Both the position numbers and the translations under genes were made by a program. Of a stretch of DNA of 64,000 nt, positions 54,283 to 63,369 are shown piece after piece. The notes beneath the pieces are model-generated. The model searched no databases. It had not been told where the DNA came from and was given only the letters and a program-made list of their open reading frames with translations. This DNA is from Chiloscyllium plagiosum (Eukaryota), in the NCBI RefSeq assembly GCF_004010195.1, contig NC_057718.1, forward strand, positions 91,936,892 to 92,000,891, in the 5' to 3' direction. Positions within the stretch are counted from its first letter, which is position 1. Every line of letters starts with the position of its first letter.

Positions 54283-54955
54283 CAGTTGAAAGTAGAATCG
54301 CAGGTAGATAGGATAGTGAAGAAAGCATTTGGAATGCTTTCCTTTATTGGTCAGAGTATTGAGTACAGGAGTTGGGAGGTCACATTACTGCTGTATGGGA
54401 CATTGGTTAAGCCACTTTTGGAATATTGCGTGCAATTCTGGTCTCCTTCCTATCAGAAGATGTTGTGAAACTTGAAAGGTTTAGAAAAGATTTACAAGGA
54501 TGTTGCAAAGATCGGAGGATTTGAGATACAGGGACAGGTTGAATAGGTAGGGCTGTTTTCCTTCGAGCATCAGAGGCTGAGGGGTGACCTTATAAAGGTT
54601 TATAAAATTATGAGAGGCATGGACAGGGAAAATAGACAAGGTCTTTTCCCGAGGATGAGGGAGTCCAGAAATGGAGGGCATAGCTTTAGGGTGAGAGGGG
54701 AAAGATATAAAAGGGATCTATGGGGCAGCTTTTTCATGCAGAAGATGGTGCGTGCGTGGAATGGGCTGCCAGAGGAAGTGGTGGAGGCTAGAACAATTGC
54801 AACATTTAATAGGCATCTTGATAGGTATATGAATGAGAAAGGTTTGGAGGGATATGGGCCAGATGCTAGCATGCGGGACTAGATTGGGTTGGGATATCTG
54901 GTTGGCATGGCCGAGTTGGACCAAAGGGTCTGTTTCAGTGCTGTATGTCTCTATC
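54283..54955 (+). mobile_element. CR1 3' end
   Basis: KVESQVDRIVKKAFGMLSFIGQSIEYRSWEV..YCVQFWSP. Confidence 0.92.
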
Positions 54956-54975
54956 ACACCAGCTGCAATAGACAT

Positions 54976-55902
54976 TGTTACCCTACACTGGAGGCAGCAC
55001 ATTGGAAATCAAACCCAACTATCCCTGGAGTCATCACAGAAGTTGAAAGATTTCATAAAATCAAGCAAAATTCTTCAATTACCAGTCTTTTAAGAATCTG
55101 AACTAGAGAAAGTACAGACCAGATACCCGTACTCAACAAAAATTCCTATTTATTTCAAGTAAATAGATTGCAACTCCAGATAAACAATTATAACTGCTGA
55201 CATATAGTGCTACAGTTAAAATGCTACCATCTTTACAAACTCTCCCTCGACACAAAGAAAAAAAGGGTGTTATAAGCTGTCGGAAAAACTTGTCAGGTGG
55301 TTAAATGGTCCCTGTCACCCAGGGTTACTGAAATGTTCCTTTTGGCTTGTCAAAACATACTGCTCCTTTCCAGATATGTTTGCTTGTTTGTAGAAGTTAG
55401 TATGGCTATTTCACCCATGCAAGATCTCCGAGCTACTAGTTAAGAGCCACAGTTACAGCTACTATGGAGGGAAATAAAAATTGGCAATTTTGAGGCTTGA
55501 AATACTTTTTACTGCAGAGCTAAAACAGCTCCTTCTCCTGCAAATATCTGATTGGTTCTGTCAAAACATTCATGGCCCCAAGCTATTCAGCTATCTTGTA
55601 GCCAATCACAGTTGTTGACAGAGAGAACGTATTTGTCATCAATAACTGGTCCACAAACCAATCAGCTACTTTCTGCAAACCAAAGCTCCATTCATACACA
55701 TTCCTTGGCTCCAGCTCATTTGTTAACCAGGGTTCTAATATTACTTGAACAAGTAATTGTGTAAAGAGGACTTACAATGAGTGTCAGGTTATTTGCTTTT
55801 ATAAAGCGTAGCAATCCTTCAATGATCATTGGCTTTTCTTCGTTTCTCTATTTCAGTTCAGGAATCAAAAATACAGACAAATAAAAAGATACTGTCTTTA
55901 CA
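54976..55902. mobile_element. Solo-LTR-like repeat
   Basis: TGTTA...TTACA termini; flanks acat/atat; shares its end with 4701-4813. Confidence 0.55.
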
Positions 55903-56604
55903 ATATTTGAAAAATGAATTGTTAGGAATAGTGTAAGTACATATGTTCTGGCATTATTAATGCTTGTGTACTACAATACATAACAAAATGTAAAAGGTGG
56001 CAGTGCTGGAGATCTGAAAGAGAAACAAAGTGCTGGAAAAACTCAGGAGACCTGGCAGCATCTGTAAGGTGGTGCATGCATGGAATGAGCTGCCAGAGGT
56101 AGTAGCGGAGGCTGGCACAATTATAACAATTTATAAGGCATTTGGATGGATATAAGAATAGAAAGGGTTTAGCAGGACATTGGCCAAATACTGGTAAATG
56201 GGACTAGATTTATTTAGGAATCTGGTTGGCATGGACGAGTTGGACCGAAGCATCTGTTTTCCTGTCATATGTCGATAGATCCATGCTGTACATCTCCATG
56301 ACTCTAGATACCACCACCTTTTGCCTCAACTTCTTATACTACACTGTTGGCATTTTATCTTCTTCTACCTTTCCTGCTTCTCTTACCATACAGCACTCTC
56401 CAATTCTTATAATTACATTTAGTACTAAGAGATCCTCCTTTAGCTTTTCATTGAAATATTCTTCATCCTGGTGATTTGACATCTACCTAATCTCGACTCA
56501 CCATATCCACTCACCCCATCCGTACTCTACTCTATTGTTCTAATTTCACCATTCACAATCTTTGCCACCTCCATTCACACACTCAGCCTTGCCACTTCAC
56601 ATGT

Positions 56605-57730
56605 CCTTCATTTTGTGAAAGGGAAGTCATGCCTGACTAACTTATTAATTTATTTGAGGAAGTAACGCAGATAAAGGGGAACCTGTGGTTCTGCTGTCTT
56701 GGATTCCCAGAAGGCATTCAACAAGGTGTTACATCAAAAGATTACTACACAAAAAGTGCAAGGTAAAACATATTTGCACAGTTAGACAATAAGCTAACGA
56801 AAGGAAGCAGATAATGCACAAGCCGGGCATTACAAATTGGCAAAATGTAACAAATGGAATATCATAGGAATCAATGCTTGGGCCTCAAATCTCCAATCAA
56901 AATCGAATAAATTTCTTGGATGATAGGAATGAATGTATTTACCAAATCTACTGATCACACAAAGATGCGTAGACGAGAAGGACGCATAGTCTGCAAATGG
57001 ATACAAGTAAGTGAAGTGAGAGGCAAAAATCTGACAGATGGCAATAACACGTGAATAAGTCAACTTGGCAGGAAGAATTAAAAATACATCATTTGAATAG
57101 AGAGAGATGGCAGAACACTAGTACTTGGAGGACTCTGGATATATTGATACACAAAGCACAAAGTTAGTGTATAGGTTCAACAAGCGATTAGGAAGAAAAT
57201 GGAATATGTGTACTTATTGCAGGGGTATGGACATAAAAGTAGGGAGGTTTTGATGTGTAGATCATTGATAAGATCACATTTAAAGTAATGTGTGAAGTTT
57301 TGGCTTCCTTACTTGAGGGAGGATACAATTACATCAGAAGTGGTTCAAAGAAGGTTGACTCAACTAATTCCTGGGAAGAAAGGGTAAGCTTATAAGAAAT
57401 GTTGGACAGATTGAGCTTGTATCCATTGAAGTTTGGGGAAAGAAAAGGTGATCTTATTAAAGCATACAGGATCCTGAGGGGACTTGACTGAATGGTTGTA
57501 CAAAAGATGTTTTCCTTTGCGGGAAGGAATACAATTAAGGCACATAGTTTAAAATAGGGATTCACCCATTTAAGAAAAATGAGGAGAGTTCTTCTTCTCT
57601 TAGAGGGCTGTTAATCTGTGGAATTCTCTTTCCCAGAGAGTAGGCAAGGCAATTAAATATTTTTAAAGGCACAATTAGATCGACTGCCTTATTAGGCAAG
57701 TATCTAAGAGCATTTGGGGGAGGTGCGGGG
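56605..57730 (+). mobile_element. Old CR1 RT-to-3' remnant
   Basis: Decayed FVKGKSCLTNL, FNKV and C-terminal motifs. Confidence 0.7.
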
Positions 57731-58557
57731 GATGTGGACAAAAATGATTTAACAAAGCTTGTGTCTGAATCTCACGGTCACATTGGAATTATTCTAATAA
57801 TTATTATTATAATGTCTGAACATCCCACACAAAAAGTAACTAGATACAGATTATGTGCCAAGTCATTCCACGAGCTTTGTTAAGTGCCAACAAAAGTGAA
57901 ATAAATTGTACCAGGATACATTGATAAACCATTAGAGACAACAGCATTTAATAGCCTTGATTATTCTGATCCAATTAATAGTCTTCATTTTTTGAACAAA
58001 TTGGTAGGTATCTAATTTGATGTTGCCCACAAGGAAAGAGGATCTATCATTATCCTTGATCCAGAATGACATTTACCAAGGATGAGAAGTTTTAGTCATG
58101 GACCTTCATGTGAATAACGGGCCAATTCTCCATCAGCATTTCTTTGGCCACACAGGATAAGATAACCTGAGAGGTAGTTTGACCTGGAGTACAGGATTGG
58201 ATTCCTTTTCTTTCCTTCTCTGCCACTGTGTGCTACTATTGAGACCTGCCACTCAAAGTAAGTTTGAGCTTGATAAGACAAATTTTCACCATTCTGAACA
58301 ACTTGTAACGAGGTCCTCAGAGTCAGACGTTCAATGCCAAGATGGAGGACGGGAAAAATTTCTAGCTGTAACAGTTGCTCCTTTTGTGAGGAATTTAAGG
58401 TGCTAGAGATGATTTCCTCGAATTGCAGGTGCATCAATTACTGTTTCATATGCTGTTGCATTGTTTTATATCTTTGGGAAAAGAAAGTCAAAACAACAGC
58501 AGTTTTAAAAGGGAGAACAGACAAAGGAAGCACATGGTAAAGTCATTGCAGGAGAGC

Positions 58558-58560
<3 letters not shown>

Positions 58561-58608
<48 letters not shown>
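58561..58608. repeat. (AG)24 microsatellite in the CR1 5' UTR
   Basis: Perfect dinucleotide run. Confidence 0.98.
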
Positions 58609-58617
<9 letters not shown>

Positions 58618-58957: not shown

Positions 58958-59879
58958 ATGGCCTTTAATAGAGTGATATGTACTTCTTGTCAGATGTGGG
59001 AGTTTAAAGAGAGTTTAAGGGGAACTGCGATAATATCTGCCATAAATGCTGCTGGCTGCGAATCTTATCAGATCGAATGGATCGGTTGGAGAGACAGTTA
59101 GAAGCAATGAGAAATTTGCAACAGCAACAGTATGTGATAGATGGCAGTTATAGGGAGGGGGAAAAGTCCCAGATACAGTCACATGGATGGGTTAACTCCA
59201 GGAAAAGTTAAGAGAGTAGGCAGCTAGTGCAGGAGTCTTTTGTGGATATACCCATTTCAACAGGTATGCTGTTTTGGAAAGTGTAGGGGGTGATAGGTTC
59301 TCAGGGGAACGGAGCACAAACAGCCAAGTTTCTGGTTCTAATGCAACGAGGGGTATGTTGGGTTCCAGGAGATCAATTGTGTTCGGGGATTCTCGAGTTT
59401 GCGGTACAGACAAGACACTTCTGTGGCCAGCAGCGAAAAAGCAGAATGGTGTGTTGTTTCCCTGGTGCCAGGATCCAAGACGTCTCAGAGAGGGTGCAGA
59501 ATGTTCTCACAGGGGAGAGGGGCCAGCAAGAGGTCATTATCCACATTGGAACCAACGAGACAAGAAGGAAAAAGGTTGAGATTCTGAAGGGAGCTTAGAG
59601 AGAGTTAGGCAGAAATTTAAAAAGGAGGTCCTTGAGAGTAGTAATATCTGGATTACTCCCGGTGCTACGTGCTAGTGAGGGTAGGAATAGGAGAACAGAG
59701 CAGACGAATGCATGGCTGAGGAGCTGGTGTATGGGGAAGGATTCACATTTTTCGATCATTGGAATCTCTTTTGGGGTAGAAGTGACCTGTATGAGAAGGA
59801 CGGATTGCACCTAAATTGGAAGGGGACTAATATATTGGCAGGGATATTTGCTAGAGCTGCTCAGGATGATTTAAACTAG
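58958..59879 (+). pseudogene. CR1 ORF1 (zinc finger + SGNH esterase-like), frameshifted
   Basis: MAFNRVICTSCQMWEF... ending DGLHLNWKGTNILAGIFARAAQDDLN* (TAG 59877-59879). Confidence 0.85.
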
Positions 59880-62520
59880 TAAGGTGTGGTGGGGTGTGGG
59901 GGGGTGGGACCCAGGGAGATAGTGAGGAAAGAGATCAATCAGAGACTGGTACAGTTGAGAACAGAAGTGAGTCAAACAGTCAGGGCAGGCAGGGACAAGA
60001 CAGCTCTAATAAATTAAACTGCATTTATTTCAATGCAAGGGGCCTAACAGGGAAGGCAGATGAACTCAGGGCATGGTTAGGAACATGGGACTGGCATATC
60101 AAAGCAATTATAGAATCAAGGCTCAGGGATGGGCAGGACTGGCAGCTGAACGTTCCAGGCTACAAATGCTACAGGAAGGATAGAAAGGGAGGCGAGAGAG
60201 GAGAGGGAGTGGCAATTTTGATAAGGGATAACATTACAGCTGTCCTGAGGGAGGATATTCCCAGAAATACATCCAGGGAAGTTATTTGGGTGGAACTGAG
60301 AAATAAAAAAGGGATGACAACCTTATTGGGATTGTATTACAGACCCCCTAATAGTCAGAAGGAAATTGAGAAACAAACGTAAGGAGATTTCGGCTCGCTG
60401 TAAAACAAAAAAGGGTGGTTGGGATTTTAACTTTACAAACATAGACTGGGACTGCCATAGTGTTAAGGGTTTAGATGAAGAGGAATTTGTTAAGTGTGTA
60501 CAAGACAATTTTCTGATTCAGTATGTGGATGTACCTATGAGAGAAGGTGCAAAACTTGACTTACTCTTGGGAAATAAGACAGGGCAGGTGACTGAGGTGT
60601 CAGTGGGGGAGTACTTTGGCGCCAGCAGCCATAATTCTATTAGATTTAAAATAATGATGGAAAAGGATAGACCAGATCTAAAAGTTGAAGTTCTAAATTG
60701 GAGAAAGGCCAATTTTGACGGCATTAGGCAAGAACTTGCGAAAGCTGACTGGGGGCAGATGTTCGCAGGTAAAGGGACAGCTAGAAAATGGAAAGCCTTC
60801 AGAAATGAGATAACGAGAAAGTATATTCCTGTTAGGGTGAAAGGAAGGGCTGGTAGGTATAGGGAATGCTGGATGACTAAAGGAATTGAGGGTTTGGATA
60901 AGAAAAAGAAGGAAGCATACGTAAGGTATAGACAGGATAGATCAAGTGAATCCTTAGAAGAGTATAAAGGAAGTAGGAGTATACTTAAGAGGAAAGTCAG
61001 AAGGGCAAAAAGGGGACATGAGATAGCATTGGCAAATAGAATTAAAGAGAATCCAAAGGGCTTTTACAAATATATTAAGGACAAAAGGGTAACTAGGGAG
61101 AGAATAGGGCCCCTCAAAGATCAACAAGGTGGCCTTTGTGTGGAGCCACAGAAAATGAGGGAGATACTAAATGCGTATTTTGCATCCGTATTTACTGTGG
61201 AAAAGGATATGGAAGATATAGACTGTAGGGGAATAGATGGTGACATCTTGCAAAATGTCCATATTACAGAGGAGGAAGTGCTGGATGTCTTGAAACGCAT
61301 AAAGGTGAATAAATCCCCAGGACCTGATCAGGTGTACCCGAGAACTCTGTGGGAAGCTAGAGAAGTGATTGCTGGGCCTCTTGCTGATATATTTGTATCA
61401 TCGATAGTCACAGGGGAGGTGCCGGAAGACTGCAGGTTGGCTAACATGGTGCCACTATTTAAGAAGGGTGGTAAGGACAAGCCAGGGAACTATAGACCAG
61501 TGAGCCTGATGTCAGTGGTGGGGAAGTTGTTGGAGGGAATCCTAAGGGACATGATGTACCTGTATTTGGAAAGGAAAGGACTGATTAGGGATAGTCAACA
61601 TGGTTTTGGGCATGGGAAATCATGTCTCACAAACTTGATTGAGTTTTTTGAACAAGTAACAAAGAGGATTGATGAGGGCAAAGCAGTAGATAAGGTTCCC
61701 CATGGGAGATTGATTAGCAAGGTTAGATCTAAAGGAATACAGTGAGAACGAGCCATTTGGATACAGAACTGACTCAAAGGTAGAAGACAGAGGGTGGTGG
61801 TGAAGGGTTGTTTTTCAGATTGGAGGCCTGTCACCAGTGGAGTGCCACAAGGATCGGTGCTGGGTCCTCTACTTTTTGTCATTTTCATACACTTAATGGT
61901 AAGGTCCTAGGGAGTGTTGCTGATCAGAGACCTTGGAGTTCAGGTTCATAGCTCCTTGAAAGTGGAGTCGCAGGTAGATAGGATAGTGAAGGTGGTGTTT
62001 GGTATGCTTTCCTTTATTGGTCAGAGTATTGAGTACAGGAGTTGGGAAGTCATCATGCGGCTATACAGGACATTGGTTCGGCCATTGTTGGAACATTGTG
62101 TGCTATTCTGGTCTCCTTCCTATTGGAAAGATGTTGTGAAACTTGAAAGGGTTCAGAAAAGATTTACAAAGATGTTGCCAGGGTTGGAGGATTTGAGCTG
62201 AAGGCAGAGGCTGAACAAACTGGGGCTGTCTTCCCTGGAGCGTTGGAGGCTGAGGGGTGACCTTAGAGGTTTACAAAATTGAGGGGCATGGATAGGATAA
62301 ATCGGCGAAGTCATTTCCCTGTGGTTGGGGAGTCCAGAACTAGAGGGCATAGGTTTAGGGTGACAGGGGAAAGATATAAAAGAGACCTACGGGGCAACTG
62401 TTTCACGCAGAGGGGGTACGTGTATGGAATGAGCTGCAAGAGGAAGTGGTGGAGGTTGGTACAATTGCAACATTTAAGAGACATTTGGATGGGTATATGA
62501 ATAGGAAGGGTTTGGAGGGA
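59870..62520 (+). pseudogene. CR1 ORF2 (APE endonuclease + reverse transcriptase), disrupted
   Basis: ORFs 59894-60382, 60366-61745 and 61914-62201; a deletion near 61885 removes the YINDL..FADD segment. Confidence 0.9.
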
Positions 62521-63369
62521 TACAGGCCGGTTGCTGGCAGGTTGGACTAGGTTGGGTTGGGATATCTGATGGCATGGACAGGTTGGACCGAACAGTCTGT
62601 TTCCATGCTGTGCATCTCTATGACTCTAGGAAGAGCTTCAAACATCTGTGTGAAGAGTTTTCTTTGTGGGTCACTCTTGATCAAAAATTCAATTGGGCAA
62701 ACAAAATAAATGGCTATGGCAACAAATCAGAGAATGGGTATTCTGTAGCAGGTTTCTCACCTTCAATCCCCAAAAGTCTTTCTCCCATTAACATAAATAC
62801 TGGCAAACTACAGTGTACTCCATACATTACCTGTAGGCTGCTGTGCAACATCTCACAAAAACTTTTCCTGCAACATGTCCCATAGATAGTTCCAAGTTTT
62901 ATGACCTAAATGTTTAAAGTGCAATTATCCAGACTTTACTGGTCCATTATTGAGCAGAGGGGAAGAGGATGAAAAACTAATAGACATTCTGTGCACAAAT
63001 TATGAAAAAAAATGCTTTTCTGAAATGCACTTCCATTGAATGCACAGATATGCAGTCAAACGTTCATCTTTTTGATTCTAATTTATATCAATAAACTTCA
63101 TACCTTGGTAATAAAATATTTCAGTTTATTATAAACCACAACTTGTTATCCTGTATATTTCACAAACCTACGTAACTTTCATTTTAAAATAAGTTTTTAC
63201 TTTCAAGCAGAGACAAAGGCTAAACACTGATCTTACAACTGACCAAAATATTTGCTCAAATGTTTTATTACTACATTAGTTATTTTTTAGTACTATGTTA
63301 GACAAATGAATGTCCATTTTGCTACATTCCCACCTCCGATGCCCTGCTGATTAAGTGATGCATTCGCAG

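What the first reader, a model, noticed from the sequence alone, without database searches (positions are those of the whole stretch)
59861..59920. Candidate -1 programmed ribosomal frameshift joining CR1 ORF1 and ORF2
Seen: ORF1 ends GAT TTA AAC TAG, an in-phase X_XXY_YYZ heptamer T_TTA_AAC (59870-59876) directly before the ORF1 stop. The -1 frame from 59870 (TTT AAA CTA GTA AGG TGT GGT GGG GTG TGG...) is the ORF2/APE frame. That frame is closed immediately upstream by TGA (59867-59869), and its first ATG is at 60314, well inside the endonuclease domain. About 6 nt after the heptamer a G-rich tract begins (GGTGTGGTGGGGTGTGGGGGGGTGGGACCCAGGG) that could form an RNA G-quadruplex. Established: UUUAAAC is the coronavirus slippery sequence, and a structure 5-9 nt downstream stimulates -1 frameshifting. 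Inference: this CR1 may make ORF2 as an ORF1-ORF2 fusion, as in retroviral gag-pol, rather than by reinitiation as described for L1. I am not aware of an experimental demonstration for CR1, but could not check the literature.
Basis: partly seen in the sequence, partly recalled or inferred. Interest (0 to 1): 0.78.

Follow-up and report, generated by a model that had tools for sequence, protein, structure and literature searches.

The report
Conserved frameshift signal in CR1 LINEs
A very common jumping gene (a CR1 LINE) in this shark-like genome ends its first gene on a seven-letter slippery sequence that most relatives examined keep or swap for another slippery sequence, and its second gene continues one base back, so its copying enzyme is likely made as a fused protein when ribosomes slip back one base.

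Summary
The coordinates are right: T_TTA_AAC (59870-76) precedes the ORF1 stop, and the -1 frame runs into the endonuclease with no ATG until 60314. This copy is dead, so the claim concerns the family. The heptamer is in 48 of 56 family copies. At the modal spacing only the -1 frame is open (11 of 11), and 10 of 11 lack an upstream ATG. Other CR1 families here, published vertebrate CR1 sequences and bird-like contigs keep it, although TTA is only 11% of ORF1 Leu codons. Two distant contigs carry G_GGA_AAC instead. One family keeps the heptamer with its stop moved. Two details fail: the TGA at 59867 and the long G-tract are copy-specific. A short G-run 8-12 nt downstream is widespread, but a G-quadruplex is predicted in only 7 of 20 junctions. 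Against: most other lineages have an in-frame ATG in the linker, one family has a SART1-like TAATG, and no translation data exist. Verdict: likely conserved -1 frameshift giving an ORF1-ORF2 fusion (0.75). I found no description for CR1 in ten literature searches; a review states -1 frameshifting for Dictyostelium TRE5-A/TRE3-A. This scan already noted it on other genomes.

The parts
58958..59879 (+). CR1 ORF1 (Cys motif, coiled coil, SGNH esterase), broken in this copy by stops and frameshifts; ends ...DGLHL...QDDLN-stop
   Evidence: homologs of a family copy carry PF13472/PF00657
59870..59876 (+). Slippery heptamer T_TTA_AAC in ORF1 phase
   Evidence: 48 of 56 family copies
59877..59879 (+). 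ORF1 stop TAG directly after the heptamer (followed by an in-frame TAA)
59883..59917 (+). G-rich tract, expanded by 12 nt over the family mode; candidate stimulator, structure not established
59867..59869 (+). Copy-specific TGA in the -1 frame (family allele G at 59867)
59877..60031 (+). ATG-free linker in the -1 frame, from the shift site to the first Asn of the endonuclease (AAT 60032-34)
60026..60382 (+). N-terminal half of the APE endonuclease; first in-frame ATG at 60314; frame broken near 60380 in this copy
   Evidence: Pfam PF03372 E=7.7e-6
60318..62550 (+). Rest of ORF2 (endonuclease end, reverse transcriptase), fragmented; right end approximate
   Evidence: RVT_1 E=9.7e-6, below the curated cut-off

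Best explanation
CR1 LINEs with an esterase ORF1 keep a slippery heptamer at the end of ORF1 with ORF2 one base back, and likely make ORF2 as an ORF1-ORF2 fusion by programmed -1 ribosomal frameshifting. Shown: the heptamer, its phase, the -1 register, the open linker and their conservation. Inferred: with tRNA-Leu on UUA and tRNA-Asn on AAC, a minority of ribosomes re-pair one base back on UUU AAA, read CUA next, bypass the ORF1 stop and translate a 45-70-codon linker, endonuclease and reverse transcriptase. The predicted junction peptide is ...D-L-N-L-V-R.... Most ribosomes would stop, giving excess ORF1p and little fusion, as in gag-pol. The adjacent stop and the G-run 8-12 nt downstream are predicted stimulators; the structure involved is unknown. 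The window's copy is broken and would make neither protein.
For: (1) Family A, the window's family: heptamer in 48 of 56 copies. At modal spacing -1 is open in 11 of 11, frames 0 and +1 are closed in 11 of 11, and 1 of 11 has an ATG before the endonuclease Asn. (2) Two other families of this genome, found with ORF1 protein queries that stop short of the last residues: heptamer in 21 of 30 (B) and 36 of 44 (C), modal register -1 in both. Family C ends L-N-F-stop, so the heptamer stays when the stop moves, and its -1 frame is closed one codon before the heptamer in 9 of 9. (3) Metagenome contigs found by esterase peptide patterns: of 12 CR1-type junctions, 7 have T_TTA_AAC, 2 G_GGA_AAC and 1 G_TTA_AAC, and the -1 frame runs open into the endonuclease in 7. 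L096 has G_GGA_AAC-stop after an ORF1 tail over 100 residues longer. U_UUA_AAC and G_GGA_AAC are listed among the most shifty heptamers, and G_UU(A) is a natural variant (PMC5009743 passages). (4) Codon use does not explain it: TTA is 20 of 188 Leu codons and AAC 34 of 82 Asn codons upstream in these ORF1s. (5) Proteins: 33 of 60 DGxH[LF]-type ORF1 representatives end in Asn (23 LN, 7 GN), against 2 of 50 DGxHP-type; named LN-ending members come from a turtle, a lizard and a swallow. (6) 17 of 23 TTTAAACTA hits in the supplement of PMC13343379 lie, by eye, at CR1-type ORF1 ends across jawed vertebrates (the search used the motif, so it shows range, not frequency).
Against: No measurement of translation. 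In-frame ATGs lie in the linker of most other lineages: family B has TAATG overlapping the stop in 7 of 9 modal copies, family C has one in 9 of 9, and all 7 open metagenome junctions have one. A UAAUG stop-start also predicts the -1 register. Only 23 of 45 family A copies are in register. L132 (endonuclease in frame 0), L166 (T_TTT_AAC, decayed) and an old lineage here (L228, L239: T_GTA_AAC) do not fit. No stimulator was found: no hairpin above shuffles (z -1.1 to +1.0), G-quadruplex in 7 of 20, no shared long-range partner, no Rfam match. The test of the residue before LN was borderline (P=0.053). No full-length ORF1-ORF2 fusion of this type was among the 4 hits of the longer-protein search (weak evidence).
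Confidence: 0.75

Rival explanations
1. Termination-reinitiation: ribosomes stop at the ORF1 stop and restart in the -1 frame at an overlapping or nearby AUG (SART1-like UAAUG), or without an AUG as described for L1, making a separate ORF2p.
For: Family B has TAATG in 7 of 9 modal copies, and family C and all 7 open metagenome junctions have a linker ATG. Reviews give this route for SART1 and L1 (passages of PMC3708506, PMC3894237, PMC2881922, PMC5009743).
Against: Family A, with at least 2142 first-look candidates, lacks an ATG before the endonuclease in 10 of 11 modal copies. ATG positions differ between lineages while the heptamer does not. Reinitiation does not predict the swap T_TTA_AAC / G_GGA_AAC or retention of the heptamer when the stop moves. 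Both routes could operate in families with TAATG.
Confidence: 0.15
2. The sequence is kept because ORF1p needs a C-terminal Leu-Asn, and the codons are shared by descent; the slippery pattern is incidental.
For: 24 of 110 esterase ORF1 representatives end in LN, 21 of them at the same distance from the DGxH motif. Conservation among copies of one family is only identity by descent.
Against: TTA is 11% of Leu codons in these ORF1s, yet it is used at this site across lineages; Leu changes to Gly where the DNA reads G_GGA_AAC; family C adds Phe after Asn; DGxHP-type esterases end in anything.
Confidence: 0.05
3. The conserved junction is an RNA or DNA signal with another job (splice donor, polymerase slippage site, protein-binding or packaging site), and ORF2 comes from a processed RNA.
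For: The G-run is conserved beside the heptamer with no clear fold. The family A junction contains GTAAG, donor-like by my recall of the consensus.
Against: GTAAG is absent from families B and C and the bird-like contigs. In 376 reads laid from one RNA run, no joint skipped the junction and no indel reached 5% at 59870-79 (depth there only about 13-20, and the reads come from many copies).
Confidence: 0.05

Closest known systems
Vertebrate canonical CR1 LINEs with esterase ORF1 (PMC13343379; section 15, passages and supplement rows seen)
   Same: Esterase ORF1 followed by APE-RT ORF2; CR1 rows of the supplement end ORF1 on the same heptamer.
   Different: The paper's main text has no occurrence of frameshift, overlap, start codon or translation.
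Dictyostelium TRE5-A and TRE3-A (APE-type non-LTR elements)
   Same: A review's figure legend says both require a -1 frameshift for ORF2 (PMC5911963 passage).
   Different: Different host kingdom and elements; I did not see the primary papers, so whether it was measured and which site is used is unknown to me.
Viral -1 frameshift sites (U_UUA_AAC, G_GGA_AAC, G_UUA_AAC; retroviral gag-pol)
   Same: Same X_XXY_YYZ heptamers, in phase, at the end of the upstream ORF with the polymerase in -1 (PMC5009743 passages).
   Different: No pseudoknot or hairpin found downstream. That 2016 review knew G-quadruplex stimulation only from synthetic constructs.
SART1 (UAAUG stop-start) and mammalian L1 (unconventional reinitiation)
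   Same: Bicistronic LINE RNA; UAAUG also puts ORF2 in -1; family B here has TAATG.
   Different: Those make a separate ORF2p; family A has no ATG at or near the stop.

Membership tests
CR1-clade LINE, esterase ORF1 type | ORF1 with SGNH esterase domain | tested here: met
   Homologs of family copy L025 at 50-60% identity carry PF13472/PF00657; the window's own broken fragments gave no esterase hit.
CR1-clade LINE, esterase ORF1 type | ORF2 with APE endonuclease then reverse transcriptase | tested here: met
   PF03372 above cut-off; RVT_1 E=9.7e-6, below cut-off in this broken copy.
CR1-clade LINE, esterase ORF1 type | Placement in the CR1 clade on an RT tree | not tested
   No tree built; assignment rests on likeness of the ORF1 end and junction to CR1-labelled supplement rows.
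Programmed -1 ribosomal frameshift | X_XXY_YYZ heptamer in phase with the upstream ORF | tested here: met
Programmed -1 ribosomal frameshift | Downstream ORF open in -1 from the shift site | tested here: met
   11 of 11 (A), 7 of 9 (B), 7 of 9 (C) modal copies; 7 of 12 metagenome junctions, 2 more cut by contig ends
Programmed -1 ribosomal frameshift | Site conserved beyond protein need | tested here: met
   Rare TTA codon kept; G_GGA_AAC swap; heptamer kept when the stop moves
Programmed -1 ribosomal frameshift | Stimulatory 3' structure 5-9 nt downstream | tested here: inconclusive
   G-run starts 8-12 nt downstream in 16 of 20; G-quadruplex predicted in 7 of 20; no hairpin or shared long-range pair
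Programmed -1 ribosomal frameshift | Measured shift or trans-frame protein | not testable with these tools
   No ribosome profiling, reporter or proteomics available
SART1-type stop-start reinitiation | AUG overlapping or beside the ORF1 stop | tested here: not met
   Absent in the window and in 10 of 11 modal family A copies; present in family B, 7 of 9

The most novel reading that the evidence does not exclude
The dominant LINE group of non-mammalian vertebrates expresses its polymerase like a retrovirus: CR1 makes an ORF1-ORF2 fusion by an ancient -1 frameshift shared with invertebrate-type lineages, stimulated by a conserved G-run rather than a pseudoknot, while fish L2-type relatives reach the same fusion by UGA-C stop readthrough, mirroring the frameshift/readthrough split of gag-pol.
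Probability: 0.35. Interest if true: 0.85.

Novelty: new variant of a known kind. Interest (0 to 1): 0.7.

Why it matters
How LINEs translate ORF2 is called an open question in reviews (PMC3894237, PMC3708506 passages), and the assumed answer is reinitiation giving a separate protein. If CR1 uses a -1 frameshift, its endonuclease-RT carries an esterase ORF1 at its N-terminus at a set ratio, ORF2 annotations that start at the first ATG are wrong, and CR1 reporter constructs need the intact junction. The junction is about 40 nt, so the question is directly testable, and it could supply a natural case of G-run or G-quadruplex stimulation.

Tried and rejected
Viral contig scans: two unrelated loci (L061, L062) and two blanks. 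A broad alignment was too divergent for a scan, and genome contigs was not scanned. Hairpin or pseudoknot stimulator: not above shuffles; long-range pairing of the G-run: one hit in L207 (-25.7 against null -19.9, sd 2.2) not seen in sibling L205, which has masked stretches, and none shared across lineages. Rfam: no match. The 1591-aa and 524-aa open frames listed are runs of masked bases, not fusions; the 622-aa frame was not fetched. Longer-protein search: 4 hits, none a CR1-type fusion (two of the four read). DGLH-codon searches of the supplement gave no counter-example (5 of 5 visible junctions), but the strings were chosen from rows already seen, so they are not independent. Residue-before-LN test: P=0.053, inconclusive. 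No RNA holder listed for this exact copy; run X20 laid no reads. One search printed nothing (pattern error) and was redone.

Full report
Observation. The window holds a decayed two-ORF LINE at about 58.9-62.6 kb on the + strand. ORF1 ends GAT GAT TTA AAC TAG; the heptamer T_TTA_AAC is at 59870-76 in ORF1 phase. The frame one base back is open from 59870 to 60382 and matches Pfam Exo_endo_phos over residues 53-148; its first ATG is residue 149. Both ORFs carry stops and frameshifts elsewhere, so this copy is dead. TTTAAAC occurs 27 times in the window and TTTAAACTAR once, so context, not the motif, carries the claim. The genome is 3.56 Gb, and the nearest named ORF1 homologs are from sharks and rays.

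The window's family (A). Two searches of the own genome gave 60 loci, 56 distinct. The heptamer is exact in 48 of 56 and reads TTTAAAT in 4. An endonuclease anchor was found in 45; 23 are in the -1 register, 14 and 8 in the others, and the modal spacing is 150 nt (11 copies), which is -1. Most of the scatter comes from the unstable G-run. In the 11 modal copies the -1 frame is open in all, frames 0 and +1 are closed in all, the -1 frame is closed 5 codons upstream in all, and one has an ATG before the endonuclease Asn. The TGA at 59867 and the long G-tract are private to this copy. Agreement among copies of one family is inheritance, not selection, so I looked at other lineages with queries that do not contain the heptamer.

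Other families in the genome. Family B: heptamer in 21 of 30, register -1 in 11 of 19 anchored copies; family C: 36 of 44, and 10 of 16 (queries, plus 20 regions). Family C ends L-N-F-stop, so the heptamer sits one codon before the end, and its -1 frame begins one codon before the heptamer in 9 of 9 modal copies. An outgroup query gave 20 loci: 8 exact, 3 displaced by upstream indels, 5 with one change, 2 with two changes, and 2 from a lineage with T_GTA_AAC. Against the frameshift model, family B has TAATG over its stop in 7 of 9 modal copies and family C has a linker ATG in 9 of 9.

Other hosts. Among 146 new cluster representatives, 110 have a DGxH motif; 24 end in LN and 7 in GN. Split by motif, 33 of 60 DGxH[LF] proteins end in Asn against 2 of 50 DGxHP proteins. 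Named LN-ending members are from a turtle, a lizard and a swallow. From the GN ends I predicted G_GGA_AAC before seeing DNA (note). A metagenome scan with esterase patterns returned 80 loci. Most are non-LINE SGNH hydrolases; I read 28 closely: 12 are CR1-type with a readable junction, 3 are L2-like, 5 end before the junction and 8 show no LINE ORF2. Of the 12, seven have T_TTA_AAC (L099, L100, L101, L103, L104, L111, L126), two G_GGA_AAC (L093, L096), one G_TTA_AAC (L098) and two do not fit (L132, L166). The -1 frame is open into the endonuclease in seven, in register with one stop in L111, and cut by the contig end in L093 and L103. All seven open linkers contain an ATG, at differing positions. 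'Bird-like' is my label from likeness to the swallow protein; hosts of the other contigs are unknown. In the supplement of PMC13343379, of which only the first 400 characters per row are held, 17 of 23 TTTAAACTA hits lie by eye at CR1-type ORF1 ends, in rows whose abbreviations I read as alligator, crocodile, tortoise, bowfin, bullfrog, coelacanth, chimaera, sharks and rays; the other 6 are elsewhere. That search used the motif and gives range only.

Is it protein constraint? Upstream in these ORF1s TTA is 20 of 188 Leu codons and AAC 34 of 82 Asn codons, and T is usually 20-40% of third positions (20 junctions, several from the same family). Holding all three by chance is about 1-2% per independent lineage (my arithmetic from those rates). 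The swap to G_GGA_AAC changes the residue but keeps X_XXY_YYZ; both heptamers are named among the most shifty in PMC5009743 (passages). The separate test of the residue before LN was borderline: 1 of 24 against 18% background, P=0.053.

Stimulator. A run of four or more G starts 8-12 nt after the heptamer in 16 of 20 junctions. A G-quadruplex is predicted in 7 of 20, strongly in family A and L104, not in family C. No hairpin beats shuffles, no long-range partner is shared, and Rfam has no match. The G-run is a conserved feature with no established structure.

RNA. One single-cell poly(A) run laid 376 reads from about 2% of the run, mostly 85-95% alike and so from many copies; no joint skips the junction and no indel reaches 5% at the heptamer, at depth about 13-20. 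The second run laid none. This is modest evidence against splicing or polymerase slippage and says nothing on translation.

Mechanism. Most likely (0.75) a tandem -1 slip at the heptamer lets some ribosomes bypass the ORF1 stop and make ORF1-linker-endonuclease-RT. Reinitiation (0.15) remains, may coexist in TAATG families, and could work without AUG as stated for L1 (PMC5009743 passage). Protein constraint and another RNA role get 0.05 each.

Literature. Ten searches of the held library listed no paper proposing frameshifting for CR1. I saw passages of PMC5009743 (first 300,000 of 449,034 characters held; CR1 0 times), PMC3708506, PMC3894237, PMC2881922 (frameshift 0 times in each of these three), PMC2734521, PMC5911963 and PMC13517186, and passages, section 15 and supplement rows of PMC13343379; other papers only as listings. 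PMC5911963 states a -1 frameshift for Dictyostelium TRE5-A and TRE3-A, so the route is not new to non-LTR elements. Older subscription papers on chicken and turtle CR1 and Repbase entries were not searchable and may mention it; bioRxiv supplements were closed. One search, made after my sequence analysis, showed eight unreviewed notes of this scan reaching the same reading on other genomes; they gave me the TRE5-A lead and are not independent evidence.

Verdict. Observation confirmed; interpretation supported at family level; a new variant of a known mechanism, untested at the bench; interest 0.7.

Noticed in passing
L095:1082, L097:1818, L102:1260: Three L2-like esterase LINE contigs (DGxHP motif; fish type by likeness to one search hits) have ORF2 in frame 0 directly behind a single TGA followed by C (TGACTAG, TGACATC, TGACGTC), open into the endonuclease; two have no ATG before it. 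UGACUAG is a known readthrough context (PMC13517186 passages). Candidate stop readthrough; only 3 of 3 readable loci.
   Followed up: partly
P0014 (Hypanus sabinus, NCBI) and P0160: Database proteins that read from the ORF1 esterase through F-K-L into the ORF2 frame (P0014 reaches LYLNARS); probably copies or gene models with a one-base indel at the junction.
   Followed up: partly
P0005: A protein named '40S ribosomal protein S24 isoform X2 [Pristis pectinata]' aligns over its length with CR1 ORF1 esterases; likely a misnamed model.
   Followed up: no
   Followed up: partly
L228, L239: An old CR1 lineage of this genome ending V-N-F-stop with T_GTA_AAC, not a slippery heptamer; both copies are decayed and nearly identical at the junction.
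   Followed up: partly
L204-L208 and others: A younger CR1 family (C) of this genome with many intact 321-codon ORF1 copies.
   Followed up: partly
window 54700-57700 and 58555-58615: Further CR1-like fragments upstream of the element, and a GA microsatellite in or near its 5' region.
   Followed up: no
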